From Escherichia phage vB_EcoM_KAW1E185, in the sequence record NC_054922.1: a stretch of 64,000 nucleotides of DNA, one strand, 5' to 3'. Under the pieces are notes generated by a model. The model made no database searches, was not told the DNA's origin, and worked only from the letters and a program-made list of their open reading frames with translations. The position numbers and the translations under genes were made by a program. Shown in pieces: positions 30,422-41,705 of the stretch. Within the stretch, counting starts at the first letter, position 1. Each line of letters opens with the position of its first letter.

Positions 30422-30895
30422 TTATTTGAACGATTTAACGTACTGAATAGAACCTTTACTATTCACAAAGGCAATTTTACCATTTTTGTTATACATGGTA
30501 GCAGTACGTTGATAGCCATAAGTTTGTTTACCAGATTGATAACCAACTAATGCGAAATTATCTTCACCCATTTTATTCTGCTTAGCACGAATGCGTTCAT
30601 GACCATGTGCCATAAGAACCTTAGCATCACCAGTTGCAATGGATCTACGAGTTTTTTCATCTTCAACTGTATTAACAAAGTCGTCAAATGAATCAAATTT
30701 AGCATGAGATTTATTATACAGTTTTCCATCTACTGCATAATTATATCCTTGTACATCCATCTCAACTTCTGTACCATCATCCAGTACAGCAGTGATTTTC
30801 TGTCCTTTTTTAAATTTCAAAAGATCAGTAAAAGATTCAGCAATAATTTGAGAATTAATAGCTGCTTCAGTAATAAATTCTTGATATGTTTTCAT
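30422..30895 (-). CDS. Internal-protein-like capsid-targeted protein (157 aa)
   Basis: N-terminal MKTYQEFITEA resembles the T4 internal-protein capsid targeting sequence. Confidence 0.6.
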   Translation of the reverse strand: MKTYQEFITEAAINSQIIAESFTDLLKFKKGQKITAVLDDGTEVEMDVQGYNYAVDGKLYNKSHAKFDSFDDFVNTVEDEKTRRSIATGDAKVLMAHGHERIRAKQNKMGEDNFALVGYQSGKQTYGYQRTATMYNKNGKIAFVNSKGSIQYVKSFK

Positions 30896-36412: not shown

Positions 36413-36488
36413 TGGTCGAGGCAGTAGGGATCGAACCTACGACCTAGGACTTAGAAGGTCCTTGCTCTTCCTTCTGAGCTATGCCCCG
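36413..36488 (-). tRNA. tRNA-Arg (anticodon UCU)
   Basis: Hand-folded cloverleaf, 76 nt, encoded CCA; anticodon loop CUUCUAA. Confidence 0.8.
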
Positions 36489-36492
36489 TAAT

Positions 36493-36568
36493 TGGGGTGA
36501 CCGATGGGAGTCGAACCCATGACTACGAGAATCACAATCTCGAGTTCTACCAACTGAACTACGGCCAC
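36493..36568 (-). tRNA. tRNA-His (anticodon GUG), tentative
   Basis: Hand-folded cloverleaf, discriminator C, encoded CCA; anticodon loop UUGUGAU; no encoded G-1. Confidence 0.55.
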
Positions 36569-36682
36569 ATTAATACCTACTCCAACAATCAAGATGTCTT
36601 CACACGAAATTAAGAGAAGAGTGATCAGTTCAACCCCTATAATCGCGTCAAGTAGATATTAATGTGACAGTTGTCACAAATT

Positions 36683-36757
36683 TGGCGGACGTGATAGGAT
36701 TCGAACCTATAACCAATCGCTTAACAGGCGATCGCTCTGCCATTGAGCTACACATCC
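36683..36757 (-). tRNA. tRNA-Asn (anticodon GUU)
   Basis: Hand-folded cloverleaf, 75 nt; anticodon loop CUGUUAA. Confidence 0.75.
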
Positions 36758-36761
36758 AAAT

Positions 36762-36848
36762 TGGTGGGGAGTGGTGGAGTCGAACCACCCGAGTCGCAAT
36801 GACAATGAATTTACAGTCCACACCGCTACCTCTACGGGATAACTCCCC
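36762..36848 (-). tRNA. tRNA-Tyr (anticodon GUA), long variable arm
   Basis: 87 nt; anticodon loop CUGUAAA; stem has two G-U pairs. Confidence 0.6.
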
Positions 36849-36857
36849 AAATTAATT

Positions 36858-36932
36858 TGGTGGCCCTGGGTGGAATTGAACCACCATCTGGCGATTATGA
36901 GTCGCTTGCTTGAACCTTCCAGCTACAGGGCC
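36858..36932 (-). tRNA. tRNA with anticodon CAU (elongator Met or Ile2-lysidine type)
   Basis: 75 nt; anticodon loop CUCAUAA; G1-C72 pair argues against initiator. Confidence 0.7.
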
Positions 36933-36933
36933 T

Positions 36934-37009
36934 TGGTGCTGATTGACGGAATCGAACCGCCGACCTTCTCATTACAAGTGAGTTGCTCTACCTACTAAGC
37001 TAAATCAGC
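36934..37009 (-). tRNA. tRNA-Thr (anticodon UGU)
   Basis: 76 nt; anticodon loop CUUGUAA. Confidence 0.75.
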
Positions 37010-37014
37010 AAAAC

Positions 37015-37104
37015 TGGCGGAGGCGATAGGATTTGAACCTATGAGTCGCCGGAGCGACTGCCGGTTTTCAAGACCGGTGCATTAAACCACTCTGCCACGC
37101 CTCC
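37015..37104 (-). tRNA. tRNA-Ser (anticodon UGA), long variable arm
   Basis: 90 nt; anticodon loop CUUGAAA. Confidence 0.8.
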
Positions 37105-37110
37105 AAATAT

Positions 37111-37761
37111 TTATATATTGTTAATTTGATTTAGAATTCTTTTTGCTTGAGTATGACTTACGCCAATATGCTTAGCATATTTAGACAATTCGCCACGTTT
37201 AGAAAAATCATATAATTTAGAAATTTCTATTCTTCTTTTTCTTTCATCCGCAGAAACTTTTGCTTCGTTTGCTTTTGCTATTTTACGTTTAGCTTCTTGA
37301 GAATGAGTTTTACCAGCAAAGCCATTCTTCATTAATCCATTTGAAGACCATCCTTTTAATTTTCCGTTAGAATGTGCCTTTTTAACACCCAATGAAATTA
37401 ATTCGCGTTGCTGATCTGTCATAGGATAATTATTTATATGGTCCCATCCACCTTCACCTCCAAGTTTTAAATTATACACATCTGGTCTATTTAAAAACTC
37501 TTCTGTGACAATATTTTTCTCGGCTTCAAGCATAGATTCTTTATCGTCAAAATACTCTAATATTTCTTTAGAAAAATTTTCTATACCATATTTATCTTGG
37601 GCTCTTTTTAATAATTTACCAGAACCCATATATCCATCATCTAAATTTTCGGTAGAATGCACACCAATATAAATTTTATTATTAATTTTATTTGTTATTT
37701 TATAAAGATAAAAATGCATATCAGTCCCTAATAAAGAACTGAGCGTCTCACGACGAGTCAT
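37111..37761 (-). CDS. segB: GIY-YIG homing endonuclease (SegB-like) inserted within the tRNA cluster
   Basis: 216 aa; FYLYKITN...KIYIGV GIY-YIG motif; basic C-terminal DNA-binding tail; flanked by tRNA genes. Confidence 0.8.
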   Translation of the reverse strand: MTRRETLSSLLGTDMHFYLYKITNKINNKIYIGVHSTENLDDGYMGSGKLLKRAQDKYGIENFSKEILEYFDDKESMLEAEKNIVTEEFLNRPDVYNLKLGGEGGWDHINNYPMTDQQRELISLGVKKAHSNGKLKGWSSNGLMKNGFAGKTHSQEAKRKIAKANEAKVSADERKRRIEISKLYDFSKRGELSKYAKHIGVSHTQAKRILNQINNI

Positions 37762-37765
37762 AAAT

Positions 37766-37839
<74 letters not shown>

Positions 37840-37844
37840 AAATT

Positions 37845-37931
37845 TGGTGCGAGAAGTGGGACTCGAACCCACAAGGAAATCATTCCGCAGCATTTTAAGT
37901 GCTGTGCCTTTACCAATTTGACCATTCTCGC
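37845..37931 (-). tRNA. tRNA-Leu (anticodon UAA), long variable arm
   Basis: 87 nt; anticodon loop CUUAAAA. Confidence 0.8.
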
Positions 37932-38005
37932 GCTGGGAATAAAGGACTCGAACCTTTGCATCTAGCAGTCAAAGTGCTATGCCTTACCAACTTGGCTAAT
38001 TCCCA
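37932..38005 (-). tRNA. tRNA-Gln (anticodon UUG), CCA not fully encoded
   Basis: Anticodon loop CUUUGAC; abuts tRNA-Leu. Confidence 0.75.
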
Positions 38006-38091: not shown

Positions 38092-38607
38092 TTAAAGCAA
38101 ATTAAACATTTTAACGGTCGGCAAAACAATTTCTTCTTCTATATAAGAGTATTTAACACTCTCAACTACACGCAAAAAATCATAATCATAATACTCAGAA
38201 GCATTACCTAAAATATTAATAAGTCCTTCAAGCACTTTATTACCATTCACAAAGAATAAGTCAAATACGCGTTCTTCGTCTTCTTCGGATTTATTACCAA
38301 GGTCAACTTCTATATCAAAGACCTTTTTAATGAATTCTGGATAAAGTTGTTCTGAGAACAGTCCTTCAACCAAGTATTCATAAATAAAAAGCGATTGCTC
38401 GCTGAACAAGCCATTACCACAATAACGTTCAGCTTTAGTACTAGAATGTCTACTTTTAAACTTCTTTAAAAGATATTGAAATTGTAAGATTTCATGCTCT
38501 TCTACGCCAAACAGTGTTTTAGTTTTATAGTTGTCACCATCATTTTCCCAGGTAGTGGCATCAATTACGTAACCCTGTGGAATTGTAGTACCTAAACAAA
38601 TATTCAT
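38092..38607 (-). CDS. Hypothetical acidic protein (171 aa)
   Basis: ORF track. Confidence 0.5.
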   Translation of the reverse strand: MNICLGTTIPQGYVIDATTWENDGDNYKTKTLFGVEEHEILQFQYLLKKFKSRHSSTKAERYCGNGLFSEQSLFIYEYLVEGLFSEQLYPEFIKKVFDIEVDLGNKSEEDEERVFDLFFVNGNKVLEGLINILGNASEYYDYDFLRVVESVKYSYIEEEIVLPTVKMFNLL

Positions 38608-39310: not shown

Positions 39311-39496
39311 TTATTCACCTTTAGAAATTTTATCCATAACAATAGCAATTAAACCAATTAAAAATGCTACTACAAGTGAAAACACATTTTCTGCTGTAGT
39401 CAATAATCCACATATAAATCCAACAAACATTGAAAAACTAAAAGCGGAAGCAGAAATTGCAATAGCAACATTTCGAATTAATTCACAACGTTTCAT
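39311..39496 (-). CDS. Small membrane protein (61 aa, 2 TM)
   Basis: Hydrophobic VAIAISASAFSFSMFVGFICGLL and LVVAFLIGLIAIV. Confidence 0.45.
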   Translation of the reverse strand: MKRCELIRNVAIAISASAFSFSMFVGFICGLLTTAENVFSLVVAFLIGLIAIVMDKISKGE

Positions 39497-39524
39497 TTTA
39501 TTCTCCTCAGTAGTAGATAGGGTA

Positions 39525-39553
39525 ATAGTATCACTACCCTATCTAAAAGTAAA
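39525..39553 (-). promoter_or_regulatory. Early promoter with flanking inverted repeat
   Basis: Minus strand TTTACT - 17 nt - TACTAT; GATAGGG...CCCTATC brackets the -10. Confidence 0.6.
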
Positions 39554-39554
39554 C

Positions 39555-39788
39555 TTATTTTTTACGAAAAATTGATTTATATTTATCAGCCCATTTCTCG
39601 ATGACTTTTTCTGGTCCATAGATAACAAAATAATCACCAAACTCTTCACCACCGAGTTGACCGAAATTATCTAATGCATCACGAAGAACTCCATGAGGCA
39701 TTTCGCCCATTTTATCTTTCTTACCAATGTAAATAAACTCAACTTTTACATCAGCAGCTTCAGCAATAAATTCTTGATACGTTTTCAT
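39555..39788 (-). CDS. Internal-protein-like capsid-targeted small protein (77 aa from MKTYQEFIAEA)
   Basis: Capsid-targeting-like N-terminus; early promoter directly upstream. Confidence 0.6.
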   Translation of the reverse strand: MKTYQEFIAEAADVKVEFIYIGKKDKMGEMPHGVLRDALDNFGQLGGEEFGDYFVIYGPEKVIEKWADKYKSIFRKK

Positions 39789-39824
39789 TTTATTCTCCAA
39801 TTTCACATTTGTTTTGATAGGGCA

Positions 39825-39852
39825 ATAGTATCACTACTAAAACCCCGTGTAA
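39825..39852 (-). promoter_or_regulatory. Early promoter
   Basis: Minus strand TTTACA - 17 nt - TACTAT. Confidence 0.6.
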
Positions 39853-39873
39853 ACAACTTTGTGAAATTGTTTA

Positions 39874-40161
39874 TTACAAAAGATTTTTAGCAATAATCTT
39901 GAGATGTGCTGCAGAAATGTGTTTAGCTTTAAACAACGCAGTTTCTTCGGCAGGAGAGATAACGATTGTAGCACCATCCTTTTTAGCAGACCACCCATCA
40001 CCTAGGTAAACAGTACCTTTGATTTCTTCGCCATCAACCAGACTAATCATTGGTTTACCTTCTCGTCCTTTATTTGCTTTAATAACTTCAGAAGTAAGAG
40101 TAGCTTCGGTAATGGTAGAAACCGGGGTAGTTGTAGAAGTAAATTCTTTAAATGTTTTCAT
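39874..40161 (-). CDS. Internal protein I-like capsid-targeted protein (95 aa)
   Basis: N-terminus MKTFKEFTSTT; adjacent to 57B where T4 places ipI. Confidence 0.6.
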   Translation of the reverse strand: MKTFKEFTSTTTPVSTITEATLTSEVIKANKGREGKPMISLVDGEEIKGTVYLGDGWSAKKDGATIVISPAEETALFKAKHISAAHLKIIAKNLL

Positions 40162-40191
40162 TTTATTTTCCTAATTAATTTTGATGAGATA

Positions 40192-40220
40192 ATAGTATCA
40201 CTACCTCATCAGTATGTAAA
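40192..40220 (-). promoter_or_regulatory. Early promoter with flanking inverted repeat
   Basis: Minus strand TTTACA - 17 nt - TACTAT; GATGAG...CTCATC brackets the -10. Confidence 0.6.
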
Positions 40221-40233
40221 CAACTTTGTGAAA

Positions 40234-40930
<697 letters not shown>

Positions 40931-40931
<1 letters not shown>

Positions 40932-41656
40932 TATAGTACCTTTAGTGTATTTTTAATTTTAGAAAAAAGTTCTTCAAGAGAACCATCGTTTGTAATTACT
41001 AAATCGCCATCACGAATTGGCAATCCAGCTTCTGTAATATGCGTATCATTGGATTTTTGACCAGGACGAACTACATGAATTACTGTAGCACCCATCGCCC
41101 TAGCCGCATCCATTTCATGATCCTGACGGGTATCAGGAACGATATAATAATCATAACCTGAGTTAAATTTATCAAGATAATCTAAAGCAAATAATTTTAC
41201 CCAGTACATGCGGTCGAAGTTATTAACAATCAAATCCGTACCTAGGGCTTGCATCAGACGACGGACTGACCATTGATCTTCAATATTATTTATAACGTCA
41301 GTAATTTTGTTAAATGCTACGAAATTAACTGATTCTTTTCCTTCGTCATCAAAAACAAACACACCTTTAATTGGGCTTTTACCATTAAGATAGCAAAATG
41401 CTTGTTCCATAATCGTGATTACTTCTAATTTAGTCAGATTTAAATTAGTCTCACGATCATAGTCAATTCCTTCAAACTCTTTACGAGTTAAGCAAGGATA
41501 GTCGGTGTTTGCTGCAAATACTCCCCATGCATAAGCCAATGCATCCTTAATAGGACCAGCAAGTTGGTATTTAACTGCAGAATAATTGCTCATGATAAAA
41601 TCAGCAGTAGTATCTTTTCCACTACGCTTTACACCGCTTAAAAAGATTAGTTTCAT
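40931..41656 (-). CDS. 1: Deoxynucleoside monophosphate kinase gp1
   Basis: 241 aa from MKLIFLSGVKRSGKDT (P-loop). Confidence 0.9.
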
Positions 41657-41705
41657 GTGTTTCTCCTCAAATTTAATTAAGATTATAACACACAAAACTG
41701 AAGCA

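What the first reader, a model, noticed from the sequence alone, without database searches (positions are those of the whole stretch)
39555..39806. Second small capsid-targeted protein (77 aa) immediately upstream of the IPI-like gene
The N-terminus MKTYQEFIAEA matches the capsid targeting sequence more closely than the adjacent IPI-like ORF (MKTFKEFTSTT). The gene has its own early promoter (39825-39852), flanked by the inverted repeat GATAGGG...CCCTATC. A small, separately promoted, capsid-targeted protein is a good candidate for an injected inhibitor of a host defence.
Basis: partly seen in the sequence, partly recalled or inferred. Interest (0 to 1): 0.5.

Follow-up and report, generated by a model that had tools for sequence, protein, structure and literature searches.

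The report
Known T-even internal protein Ip6 cassette
The 77-residue gene is the already named, functionally untested internal protein Ip6 of T4-like phages: a small protein carrying the standard head-packaging tag, in a promoter-bounded cassette that relatives gain and lose, so the finding is real but ordinary.

Summary
On the minus strand, 39555-39788 encodes 77 aa. Its first 11 residues (MKTYQEFIAEA) are identical to T4 IPII and IPIII. A T4-type early promoter lies at 39825-39854. The window is a Tequatrovirus, and the neighbouring "IPI-like" gene encodes a protein identical to T4 IPI.

The ORF is the orthologue of phage T6 Ip6 (79% identity; phrog_8111, E=2e-50). GenBank records already annotate it as ip6 or internal head protein. 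The polymorphic Ip loci were described by Repoila et al. 1994.

The gene sits in a 300-bp cassette between two copies of an early-promoter/stem-loop element (PeSL). T4 has a single chimeric copy there and no gene.

Between 57B and trna.4, different phages carry one to at least four such cassettes. Ip6 relatives occur in 249 of about 789 phage records that have the locus.

The protein is an orphan, with only 4 clusters among 1.84 billion representatives. It is under purifying selection, near-neutral in charge, and predicted with good confidence to have a generic ferredoxin-like fold unlike IPI*.

Most likely mechanism, inferred and not shown: packaging through the tag, cleavage after Glu10, injection with the DNA, and inhibition of a specific host nuclease. 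A GmrSD-type type IV restriction enzyme is the probable target, as for Ip1-3. Novelty: already known. Interest is low.

The parts
39555..39788 (-). ip6 coding sequence: 77 aa plus stop, ATG at 39788-39786, TAA at 39557-39555
   Evidence: phrog_8111 'internal virion protein' E=1.8e-50 over the full length. 79% identical to T6 Ip6. dN/dS is 0.1-0.5 between alleles.
39759..39788 (-). Codons 1-10, MKTYQEFIAE: capsid targeting sequence, with the predicted gp21 cleavage site after Glu10 (I-A-E|A)
   Evidence: Identical to the first 10-11 residues of T4 IPII and IPIII. The role of this 10-residue leader in targeting and processing is described in PMC9026906.
39795..39798 (-). Shine-Dalgarno GGAG, 6 nt before the ATG
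   Evidence: Read from the sequence. The same leader layout is found at ipI and trna.4.
39825..39854 (-). Early promoter of ip6: GTTTAC(A) -35 at 39854-39848, extended -10 TGATACTAT ending at 39825
   Evidence: 12 matches in the window, all on the minus strand, against 0.07 expected.
39819..39873 (-). Two predicted stem-loops around the ip6 promoter. An A/U-rich hairpin at 39873-39850 ends in the -35. A weaker hairpin at 39846-39819 spans the -10. Together with the promoter they form a PeSL-type element.
   Evidence: -18.2 kcal/mol, z = -3.7. PeSL definition in PMC2839356 and PMC4122927.
39514..39554 (-). Second PeSL copy: the trna.4 early promoter (39525-39554) with a perfect 11-bp palindrome (39545-39535 / 39524-39514) straddling the -10. 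It starts directly after the ip6 stop codon and is a possible attenuator of ip6 transcripts.
   Evidence: (D1, I8), (-18.5 kcal/mol, z = -3.5). The equivalent T4 site is annotated PE1 and 'pot. IpI terminator' in X03016.
39514..39813 (-). 300-nt unit absent from T4: ip6 leader, ip6 ORF and one promoter copy. The boundary can slide within the shared repeat GTGATACTATT[A/G]CCCTATC.
   Evidence: Alignments with T4 and teqdroes. Repeat spacing of 300. T4 goes directly from ipI to trna.4.
39874..40161 (-). ipI (95 aa), protein identical to T4 IPI; the preceding cassette
   Evidence: Pfam IPI_T4 E=7.3e-54; identical translation in T4.
40192..40221 (-). ipI early promoter, the third PeSL copy, with a palindrome at 40211-40182
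   Evidence: D1, D2, I23; z = -4.5. Equals PE2 of X03016.
39311..39496 (-). trna.4 homologue (61-aa predicted membrane protein), the conserved downstream anchor of the Ip locus
   Evidence: Present in 789 phage records.
40234..40689 (-). Gene 57B, the conserved upstream anchor of the Ip locus
41287..41294 (-). Late-promoter motif TATAAATA inside gene 1. It is the nearest upstream late-promoter match and a candidate source of the late read-through transcripts needed for packaging.
   Evidence: It lies at the position of PL1 annotated in T4 record X03016. Use at late times is inferred.

Best explanation
Identity. The ORF at 39555-39788 (minus strand) is this phage's allele of ip6, one of the polymorphic 'internal protein' genes of T-even phages.

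Cassette. It is a self-contained unit made of a sigma-70-type early promoter embedded in stem-loops (a PeSL), a GGAG ribosome site and a 77-codon ORF. It sits between ipI and trna.4. Homologous recombination between the near-identical promoter copies on either side inserts or deletes the unit. T4 shows the deleted state, with a single chimeric promoter.

Proposed mechanism, inferred from T4 IPII/IPIII and Ip1-3:
1. The gene is transcribed early from its own promoter and late by read-through from the late promoter in gene 1.
2. At late times the N-terminal decapeptide MKTYQEFIAE docks the protein onto the prohead scaffolding core.
3. The prohead protease gp21 cuts after Glu10, leaving a 67-residue, near-neutral (pI about 6.8) ferredoxin-like protein free inside the head.
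4. This protein is ejected with the DNA at the next infection.
5. It then binds and blocks one specific first-response host nuclease before any phage gene is expressed. [quoted passage not shown]

Shown here: the ORF, leader identity, orthology, promoter and stem-loop repeats, presence/absence polymorphism, purifying selection and predicted fold.
Inferred: late expression, packaging, cleavage, injection and the target.
For: Leader identical in 11 of 11 residues to T4 IPII and IPIII. That 10-residue leader is sufficient for head targeting and processing (PMC9026906).

Orthology to T6 Ip6 and VR7 ip6. phrog_8111 E=1.8e-50.

Only three CTS-bearing ORFs occur in 64 kb, all in the two Ip loci.

Promoter pattern: 12 matches against 0.07 expected, all on the early strand. 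Three copies lie at 300- and 367-nt spacing, each with stem-loops at z = -3.5 to -4.5.

T4 lacks exactly one 300-nt unit. Its single promoter is ip6-type on the left and trna.4-type on the right.

One to at least four CTS cassettes occupy the same slot in other phages.

dN/dS is 0.1-0.5.

A late-promoter motif upstream corresponds to T4 PL1.

Ip1, Ip2 and Ip3 each inhibit a different GmrSD enzyme, and the authors expect the other Ip-locus proteins to do likewise (PMC12373910; PMC3012670).
Against: - I found no direct evidence that Ip6 is in virions. Two literature searches and one paper on phages that carry the gene turned up no virion proteomics for it.
- No target is known.
- Mature Ip6 is near-neutral, whereas mature IPI, IPII and IPIII are basic, pI 9.0-9.7.
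- No signal of positive selection was seen in crude pairwise dN/dS.
- The own promoter is early, while packaging needs late protein. Late read-through past two stem-loop elements is assumed, not shown.
Confidence: 0.6

Rival explanations
1. Ip6 is packaged and injected as above, but its target is not a GmrSD-type enzyme. It could instead be another first-response defence, such as a hydroxymethylcytosine/glucosyl-hmC DNA glycosylase or another nuclease. It could also be a host function unrelated to restriction.
For: Ip6 differs from Ip1-3 in charge: pI 6.8 against 9.0-9.7. It has an unrelated, generic ferredoxin-like fold. Other defences aimed at T-even modified DNA exist, for example the Brig glycosylases (PMC13160076).
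Against: All three Ips with known targets hit GmrSD variants although they are unrelated in sequence, so dissimilarity does not argue against the same target class (PMC12373910).
Confidence: 0.25
2. Ip6 is a dispensable prohead-core or DNA-associated 'filler' protein with no target after injection.
For: Internal proteins were historically viewed as DNA-associated head components. Lysines of internal proteins contact DNA phosphates in T4 heads (PMC3012670).
Against: Mature Ip6 has no net positive charge: 12 K+R against 12 D+E. The gene is kept under purifying selection yet is freely gained and lost between close relatives. That is the pattern of an accessory host-range gene rather than a structural one.
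Confidence: 0.1
3. Ip6 acts only as an early cytoplasmic protein. The CTS-like leader is a passenger of recombination among cassette leaders and does not lead to meaningful packaging.
For: The gene's own promoter is an early one. Leaders do recombine between cassettes: one allele (L011) carries the IPI/Ip5-type MKTFKEF leader.
Against: The leader is conserved even in homologues at 35-50% identity in other genera (Gaprivervirus, Karamvirus). T4 ipI has the same early-promoter layout and is packaged. The 10-residue leader alone suffices to package foreign proteins (PMC9026906).
Confidence: 0.04
4. The 7-bp inverted repeat GATAGGG/CCCTATC marks the ends of a small transposon-like mobile element carrying the gene.
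For: The motif does occur in inverted orientation on both sides of the ORF.
Against: The motif is part of three direct copies of the promoter element (D1). The downstream copy holds both arms of its own local palindrome (I8). The ipI promoter has an analogous palindrome with a different sequence (I23). There is no transposase and no target-site duplication. The T4 junction is a simple homologous crossover within the repeated promoter.
Confidence: 0.01

Closest known systems
Ip6 of phage T6, and 'ip6' of vB_EcoM_VR7, VR25 and fFiEco06 (phrog_8111). As I recall, the ORFs of the polymorphic Ip loci were first described by Repoila et al. 1994, EMBO J 13:4181. That paper is not held in the library, so this attribution rests on my own knowledge and on citations in PMC12373910 and PMC9026906.
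   Same: Same length (77 aa), same leader and same position directly before trna.4, with the same promoter elements. Identity is 79% to T6 and 84% to VR7.
   Different: The window allele is a mosaic. Codons 1-45 are T6-like (dS 0.17). Codons 46-75 are closer to the Gaprivervirus VR7 type (dS 0.56, against 1.13 to T6). Here Ip6 is paired with IPI rather than with Ip5 as in T6. Only 19 phage records cover at least 80% of the 1-kb ipI+ip6 query.
T4 IPII and IPIII (injected inhibitors of GmrSD-ECOR21 and GmrSD-ECOR17)
   Same: Identical first 11 residues, including the I-A-E cleavage site. They are small accessory proteins of a polymorphic Ip locus.
   Different: No similarity beyond the leader. 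IPII and IPIII are basic (pI 9.6, 9.7) while Ip6 is neutral. They lie in a different locus, between denV and e. Their targets are known and the target of Ip6 is not.
T4 IPI / IPI* (Pfam PF11634, inhibitor of GmrS/GmrD of E. coli CT596)
   Same: Adjacent cassette in the same locus, with the same promoter/stem-loop/SD layout. Similar mature size: 76 against 67 residues.
   Different: BLASTP similarity is confined to residues 1-16. Ip6 gives no Pfam hit. The IPI leader is 19 residues long. The IPI* fold, two beta-sheets flanked by terminal helices (PMC3012670), is not the predicted beta-alpha-beta-beta-alpha-beta fold of Ip6. No IPI* structure appears among the listed fold matches.
PeSL (promoter-early stem-loop) cassettes of T4-type phages (Arbiol et al. 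2010, PMC2839356; Comeau et al. 2014, PMC4122927)
   Same: An early promoter matching the PST/T4-type consensus TTTACW-N17-TAYWAT, a stem-loop overlapping the -10, and an SD plus ATG at the 3' end. The elements flank an accessory ORF that a close relative replaces with a single chimeric element.
   Different: No structural difference was seen. Terminator or attenuator activity and mini-circle formation were not tested here.

Membership tests
T-even internal proteins (Ip class) | N-terminal capsid targeting sequence of about 10 residues, MKT(Y/F)(Q/K)EF... | tested here: met
   MKTYQEFIAE is identical to T4 IPII and IPIII. Only 3 such ORFs occur in the window.
T-even internal proteins (Ip class) | Prohead-protease (gp21) cleavage site C-terminal to Glu at the end of the leader | tested here: met
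   The sequence I-A-E|A at residues 8-11 is the same as in IPII and IPIII. gp21 cleaves after Glu (PMC5694885; PMC9026906). Met by sequence only; cleavage itself was not observed.
T-even internal proteins (Ip class) | Encoded in one of the two polymorphic Ip loci (57B-trna.4, or denV-e) | tested here: met
   The gene lies between ipI and trna.4, downstream of 57B.
T-even internal proteins (Ip class) | Physically present in the mature head and injected with the DNA | not testable with these tools
   I found no virion proteomics for Ip6 in the searchable literature.
T-even internal proteins (Ip class) | Protein available at late times, during prohead assembly | tested here: inconclusive
   A late-promoter motif TATAAATA lies at 41287-41294 (minus strand), at the position of T4 PL1. 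Read-through to ip6 is assumed.
Ip6 family (phrog_8111) | Full-length sequence homology to T6 or VR7 Ip6 | tested here: met
   phrog_8111 E=1.8e-50, residues 1-77 aligned to 1-77 of the 77-position profile. 79% identity to T6 Ip6. BFVD structural match to VR7 Ip6 with TM 0.95.
IPI* nuclease inhibitor (Pfam PF11634) | Match to the IPI_T4 profile or fold | tested here: not met
   No Pfam hit for Ip6, while the neighbouring ORF scores E=7e-54. BLASTP similarity covers the leader only. The predicted topology differs.
PeSL regulatory cassette | Sigma-70-like early promoter, a stem-loop between or over the promoter boxes, and SD/ATG at the 3' end, on both sides of an accessory ORF | tested here: met
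   Definition in PMC2839356 and PMC4122927.
PeSL regulatory cassette | The ORF is present in one phage and replaced by a single chimeric PeSL in a close relative | tested here: met
   T4 lacks the 300-nt unit, and its PE1 promoter is a hybrid of the two flanking copies.
PeSL regulatory cassette | The stem-loop terminates or attenuates upstream transcription | not testable with these tools
   Only predicted folding energies are available. The simple intrinsic-terminator scan found none.
Injected GmrSD (type IV restriction) inhibitors | Restores plating of glucosyl-hmC phage on cells carrying a specific GmrSD variant | not testable with these tools
   This is a functional assay, shown for Ip1-3 only (PMC12373910).

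The most novel reading that the evidence does not exclude
Ip6 is an injected inhibitor of a first-response defence outside the GmrSD type IV family, for example an hmC or glucosyl-hmC DNA glycosylase or another nuclease. Allelic variation in residues 46-70 (strands 2-3 and helix 2) would set which variant of that defence is blocked. This would extend the head-delivered anti-defence repertoire of T-even phages beyond type IV restriction.
Probability: 0.2. Interest if true: 0.55.

Novelty: already known. Interest (0 to 1): 0.15.

Why it matters
As a discovery it matters little. The gene family is named, annotated in GenBank and PHROGs, and its cassette-style shuffling is a published paradigm.

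Its residual value is practical. Ip6 occurs in about a third of the phage records that have this locus. It has no reported target, although all three T4 Ips tested so far block a distinct GmrSD restriction enzyme. A confident small-fold model and two clearly different natural alleles make it a ready candidate for a target screen. Such a screen would add to host-range prediction for therapeutic T4-like phages.

Tried and rejected
No remote homology or informative fold match was found.
- Pfam gave no significant hit for Ip6.
- A PDB sequence search gave nothing below E=0.03; the top hits were weak matches to DyP peroxidases.
- A search of 1.84 billion representative proteins found only 4 clusters, all phage Ip6-like.
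- Foldseek against PDB gave no hit with E at or below 0.001.
- Foldseek against BFVD found only Ip6 itself and one 31%-identical relative.
- The afdb50 library was unavailable.
- IMG/VR yielded only 5 loci, all complete T4-like genomes.

Literature limits.
- Repoila 1994, Bair 2007 and Rifat 2008 are not held in the library.
- A search on 'Ip6' was swamped by inositol hexakisphosphate papers.
- No virion proteomics mentioning this protein was found.

Readings rejected.
- The GTG start at 39806: it has no SD and is too close to the transcript start.
- The flanking 7-bp inverted repeat as a mobile-element terminus: it is part of the direct promoter repeats.
- A basic DNA-condensing role: the mature protein has zero net charge.
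- Positive selection as the cause of the variable C-terminal half: dN/dS is below 1, and the pattern fits intragenic recombination.

Full report
**What is in the sequence**

All genes in this part of the window are on the minus strand. The order is gene 1 (dNMP kinase, 40931-41695), 57A (40689-40931), 57B (40234-40689), a 95-aa ORF (39874-40161), the ORF of the finding (39555-39788), a 61-aa membrane-protein ORF (39311-39496), then trna.3 and trna.2 homologues and a tRNA cluster.

A 1-kb query around the finding is 99.8-99.9% identical to Escherichia phages 303Ecol101PP and vB_EcoM_R5505. It is about 97.6% identical to T4 over 72% of its length, in two pieces. The window is therefore a Tequatrovirus. 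The 95-aa ORF matches Pfam IPI_T4 at E=7e-54, and its translation is identical to T4 IPI. It is ipI itself, not merely IPI-like.

**Check of the observation**

- The 77-aa protein starts at the ATG at 39788. A GGAG lies six bases upstream of it.
- The reported end, 39806, is the GTG of the longest ORF. That GTG has no ribosome-binding site.
- The first 11 residues, MKTYQEFIAEA, are identical to those of T4 IPII and IPIII, translated from the T4 record.
- A relaxed CTS pattern finds only three ORFs in all six frames of the window: this one, ipI, and a 157-aa ORF at 30422-30895 in the other Ip locus.
- The promoter GTTTAC-N18-TACTAT at 39825-39854 is one of 12 matches in the window. All 12 are on the minus strand, against 0.07 expected from shuffles.
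- The 7-bp inverted repeat exists. It belongs, however, to three direct copies of a roughly 39-nt promoter element at 39516-39554, 39816-39854 and 40183-40221, spaced 300 and 367 nt apart.

**What it is**

PHROGs places the protein in phrog_8111 'internal virion protein' at E=1.8e-50, full length to full length. tblastn finds it in 249 phage records. Several annotate it 'ip6', and the VR7 record says 'similar to bacteriophage T6 Ip6'.

In T6 the order is 57B, Ip5, Ip6. T6 Ip6 has 77 residues and is 79% identical to the window protein. The ORF is thus the orthologue of a named internal protein.

To my knowledge the name goes back to Repoila et al. 1994, which is not held in the library. Later papers cite it for about ten Ip-like ORFs that share a leader and conserved promoter blocks (PMC12373910; PMC9026906; PMC3012670).

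**Cassette anatomy and how it moves**

T4 goes directly from ipI to trna.4. Aligned to the window, it lacks exactly 300 nt, at 39514-39813.

The single T4 promoter (PE1 of record X03016) is a hybrid. Through CCCTATCAA it matches the ip6-type promoter. From CTACTGAGGAG onward it matches the trna.4 leader. This is the product expected from homologous recombination within the shared GTGATACTATT[A/G]CCCTATC.

Each of the three promoters is predicted to sit in stem-loops, with z-scores of -3.5 to -4.5 against shuffles. One A/U-rich hairpin ends in the -35. A second spans the -10.

This matches the published definition of PeSLs:
- an early promoter;
- a stem-loop between or over the promoter boxes;
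- an SD and ATG at the 3' end;
- flanking accessory ORFs that a close relative replaces with a single chimeric element (PMC2839356; PMC4122927, which gives the PST/T4 consensus TTTACW-N17-TAYWAT).

Other phages fill the 57B-trna.4 slot differently.

| Phage | CTS cassettes between 57B and trna.4 |
|---|---|
| T4 | ipI |
| T6 | ip5, ip6 |
| Window, teqdroes, KMB40 | ipI, ip6 |
| UFV-AREG1 | ipI plus three other CTS ORFs, no ip6 |
| VR7 | ip9, other ORFs, then ip6 |

When an Ip6 relative is present it is always the cassette next to trna.4. This holds in Gaprivervirus (VR7, ECML-359) and in Karamvirus (ZX13, 35% identity). That pattern suggests, by inference, that its absence from T4 is a loss.

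Counts in the phage collection are as follows.

| Feature | Phage records |
|---|---|
| trna.4 homologue | 789 |
| Ip6 family | 249 |
| IPI* | 290 |
| At least 80% of the 1-kb ipI+ip6 query | 19 |

**The protein**

The family is tiny. There are 11 clusters at 90% identity. Only 4 representatives turn up among 1.84 billion proteins, all phage Ip6-like.

After removal of the leader the protein has 67 residues, 7.7 kDa and pI 6.8. Mature IPI, IPII and IPIII have pI 9.0-9.7.

Pairwise dN/dS between alleles is 0.1-0.5, so this is a real gene under purifying selection.

Fourteen of the 16 differences from T6 Ip6 fall in residues 46-70. Synonymous divergence shows this is a mosaic. Codons 1-45 are T6-like (dS 0.17). 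Codons 46-75 are nearer the VR7 type (dS 0.56, against 1.13 to T6). One metagenomic allele carries the IPI/Ip5-type leader MKTFKEF, so leaders recombine too.

**Mechanism**

Established knowledge of T4 sets the frame.
- The 10-residue IPIII leader alone directs proteins into the prohead core, and it is removed by gp21, which cuts after Glu (PMC9026906; PMC5694885).
- Internal proteins leave the head with the DNA.
- Ip1, Ip2 and Ip3 each inhibit one GmrSD type IV restriction enzyme, with no cross-protection. The authors expect the remaining Ip-locus proteins to target further GmrSD variants (PMC12373910).

Ip6 has the identical leader and cleavage site and sits in the same locus. I therefore infer that it is packaged, cleaved after Glu10, injected, and blocks one specific host nuclease, most likely a GmrSD variant.

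Late expression would come from the TATAAATA at 41287-41294 in gene 1, which corresponds to T4 PL1. None of these steps was observed for Ip6.

**Rivals**

- A target outside the GmrSD family is quite possible, given the different charge and fold.
- A purely structural role is unlikely for a neutral, freely gained-and-lost protein.
- A cytoplasm-only role is unlikely because the leader is conserved even in distant homologues.
- A transposon-like reading of the inverted repeat is rejected.

**Verdict**

The object is an already named and annotated gene in an already described kind of shuffling cassette. The only open question is the target of Ip6, which needs experiments.

Noticed in passing
window 30422-30895 (-): A third CTS-bearing ORF (157 aa, MKTYQEFITEA...), phrog_3155 'internal virion protein' at E=6e-102. 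It lies where T4 has ipII and ipIII. It is the only CTS ORF found in that locus, so this phage carries a different Ip set there.
   Followed up: partly
window 38092-38607 (-): A 171-aa ORF of unknown function (phrog_2290) between the trna.2 homologue and tRNA-Gln. No ORF is annotated at that place in T4 or teqdroes, but IMG/VR locus L011 has it. It looks like another variable accessory gene.
   Followed up: no
window 36413-38005 (-): The tRNA cluster holds 10 genes (Gln, Leu, Gly, then Ser, Thr, Met, Tyr, Asn, His, Arg). It is split by a 216-aa homing-endonuclease ORF at 37111-37761 (phrog_314). The tRNA set and the endonuclease position differ from T4, which has Gln, Leu, Gly, Pro, Ser, Thr, Ile, then segB, then Arg.
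   Followed up: partly
L011 2501-2734 (IMGVR_UViG_3300010279_000005): An Ip6 allele whose leader is MKTFKEFIAE, the IPI/Ip5-type start, instead of MKTYQEFIAE. This suggests recombination inside the conserved leader itself.
   Followed up: no
L001 3247-3312 (Escherichia phage teqdroes): In teqdroes the 5' leader of trna.4 repeats the ip6-type leader (AAAACAAATGTGAAATTGGAG) after the promoter, instead of the CTACTGAGGAG leader seen in the window and T4. This is a second recombination variant of the same junction.
   Followed up: no
window 39795-39798 and 39503-39506 versus 40168-40171 (-): The Shine-Dalgarno of ip6 and of trna.4 is GGAG, the motif cut by the T4 RegB endoribonuclease in early mRNAs. 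The ipI site is GGAA. Differential early shut-off is possible but was not examined.
   Followed up: no
window 39555-39689 (-), codons 46-75 of ip6: The window allele is an intragenic mosaic. Its C-terminal half is closer at synonymous sites to Gaprivervirus VR7 than to T6, while its N-terminal half is T6-like.
   Followed up: partly
proteins P0001, P0006, P0007: Database versions of Ip6 with likely annotation or sequence artefacts. One is an 83-aa form that starts at the upstream GTG. Two are 98-aa forms that read through the stop codon into the promoter element.
   Followed up: no
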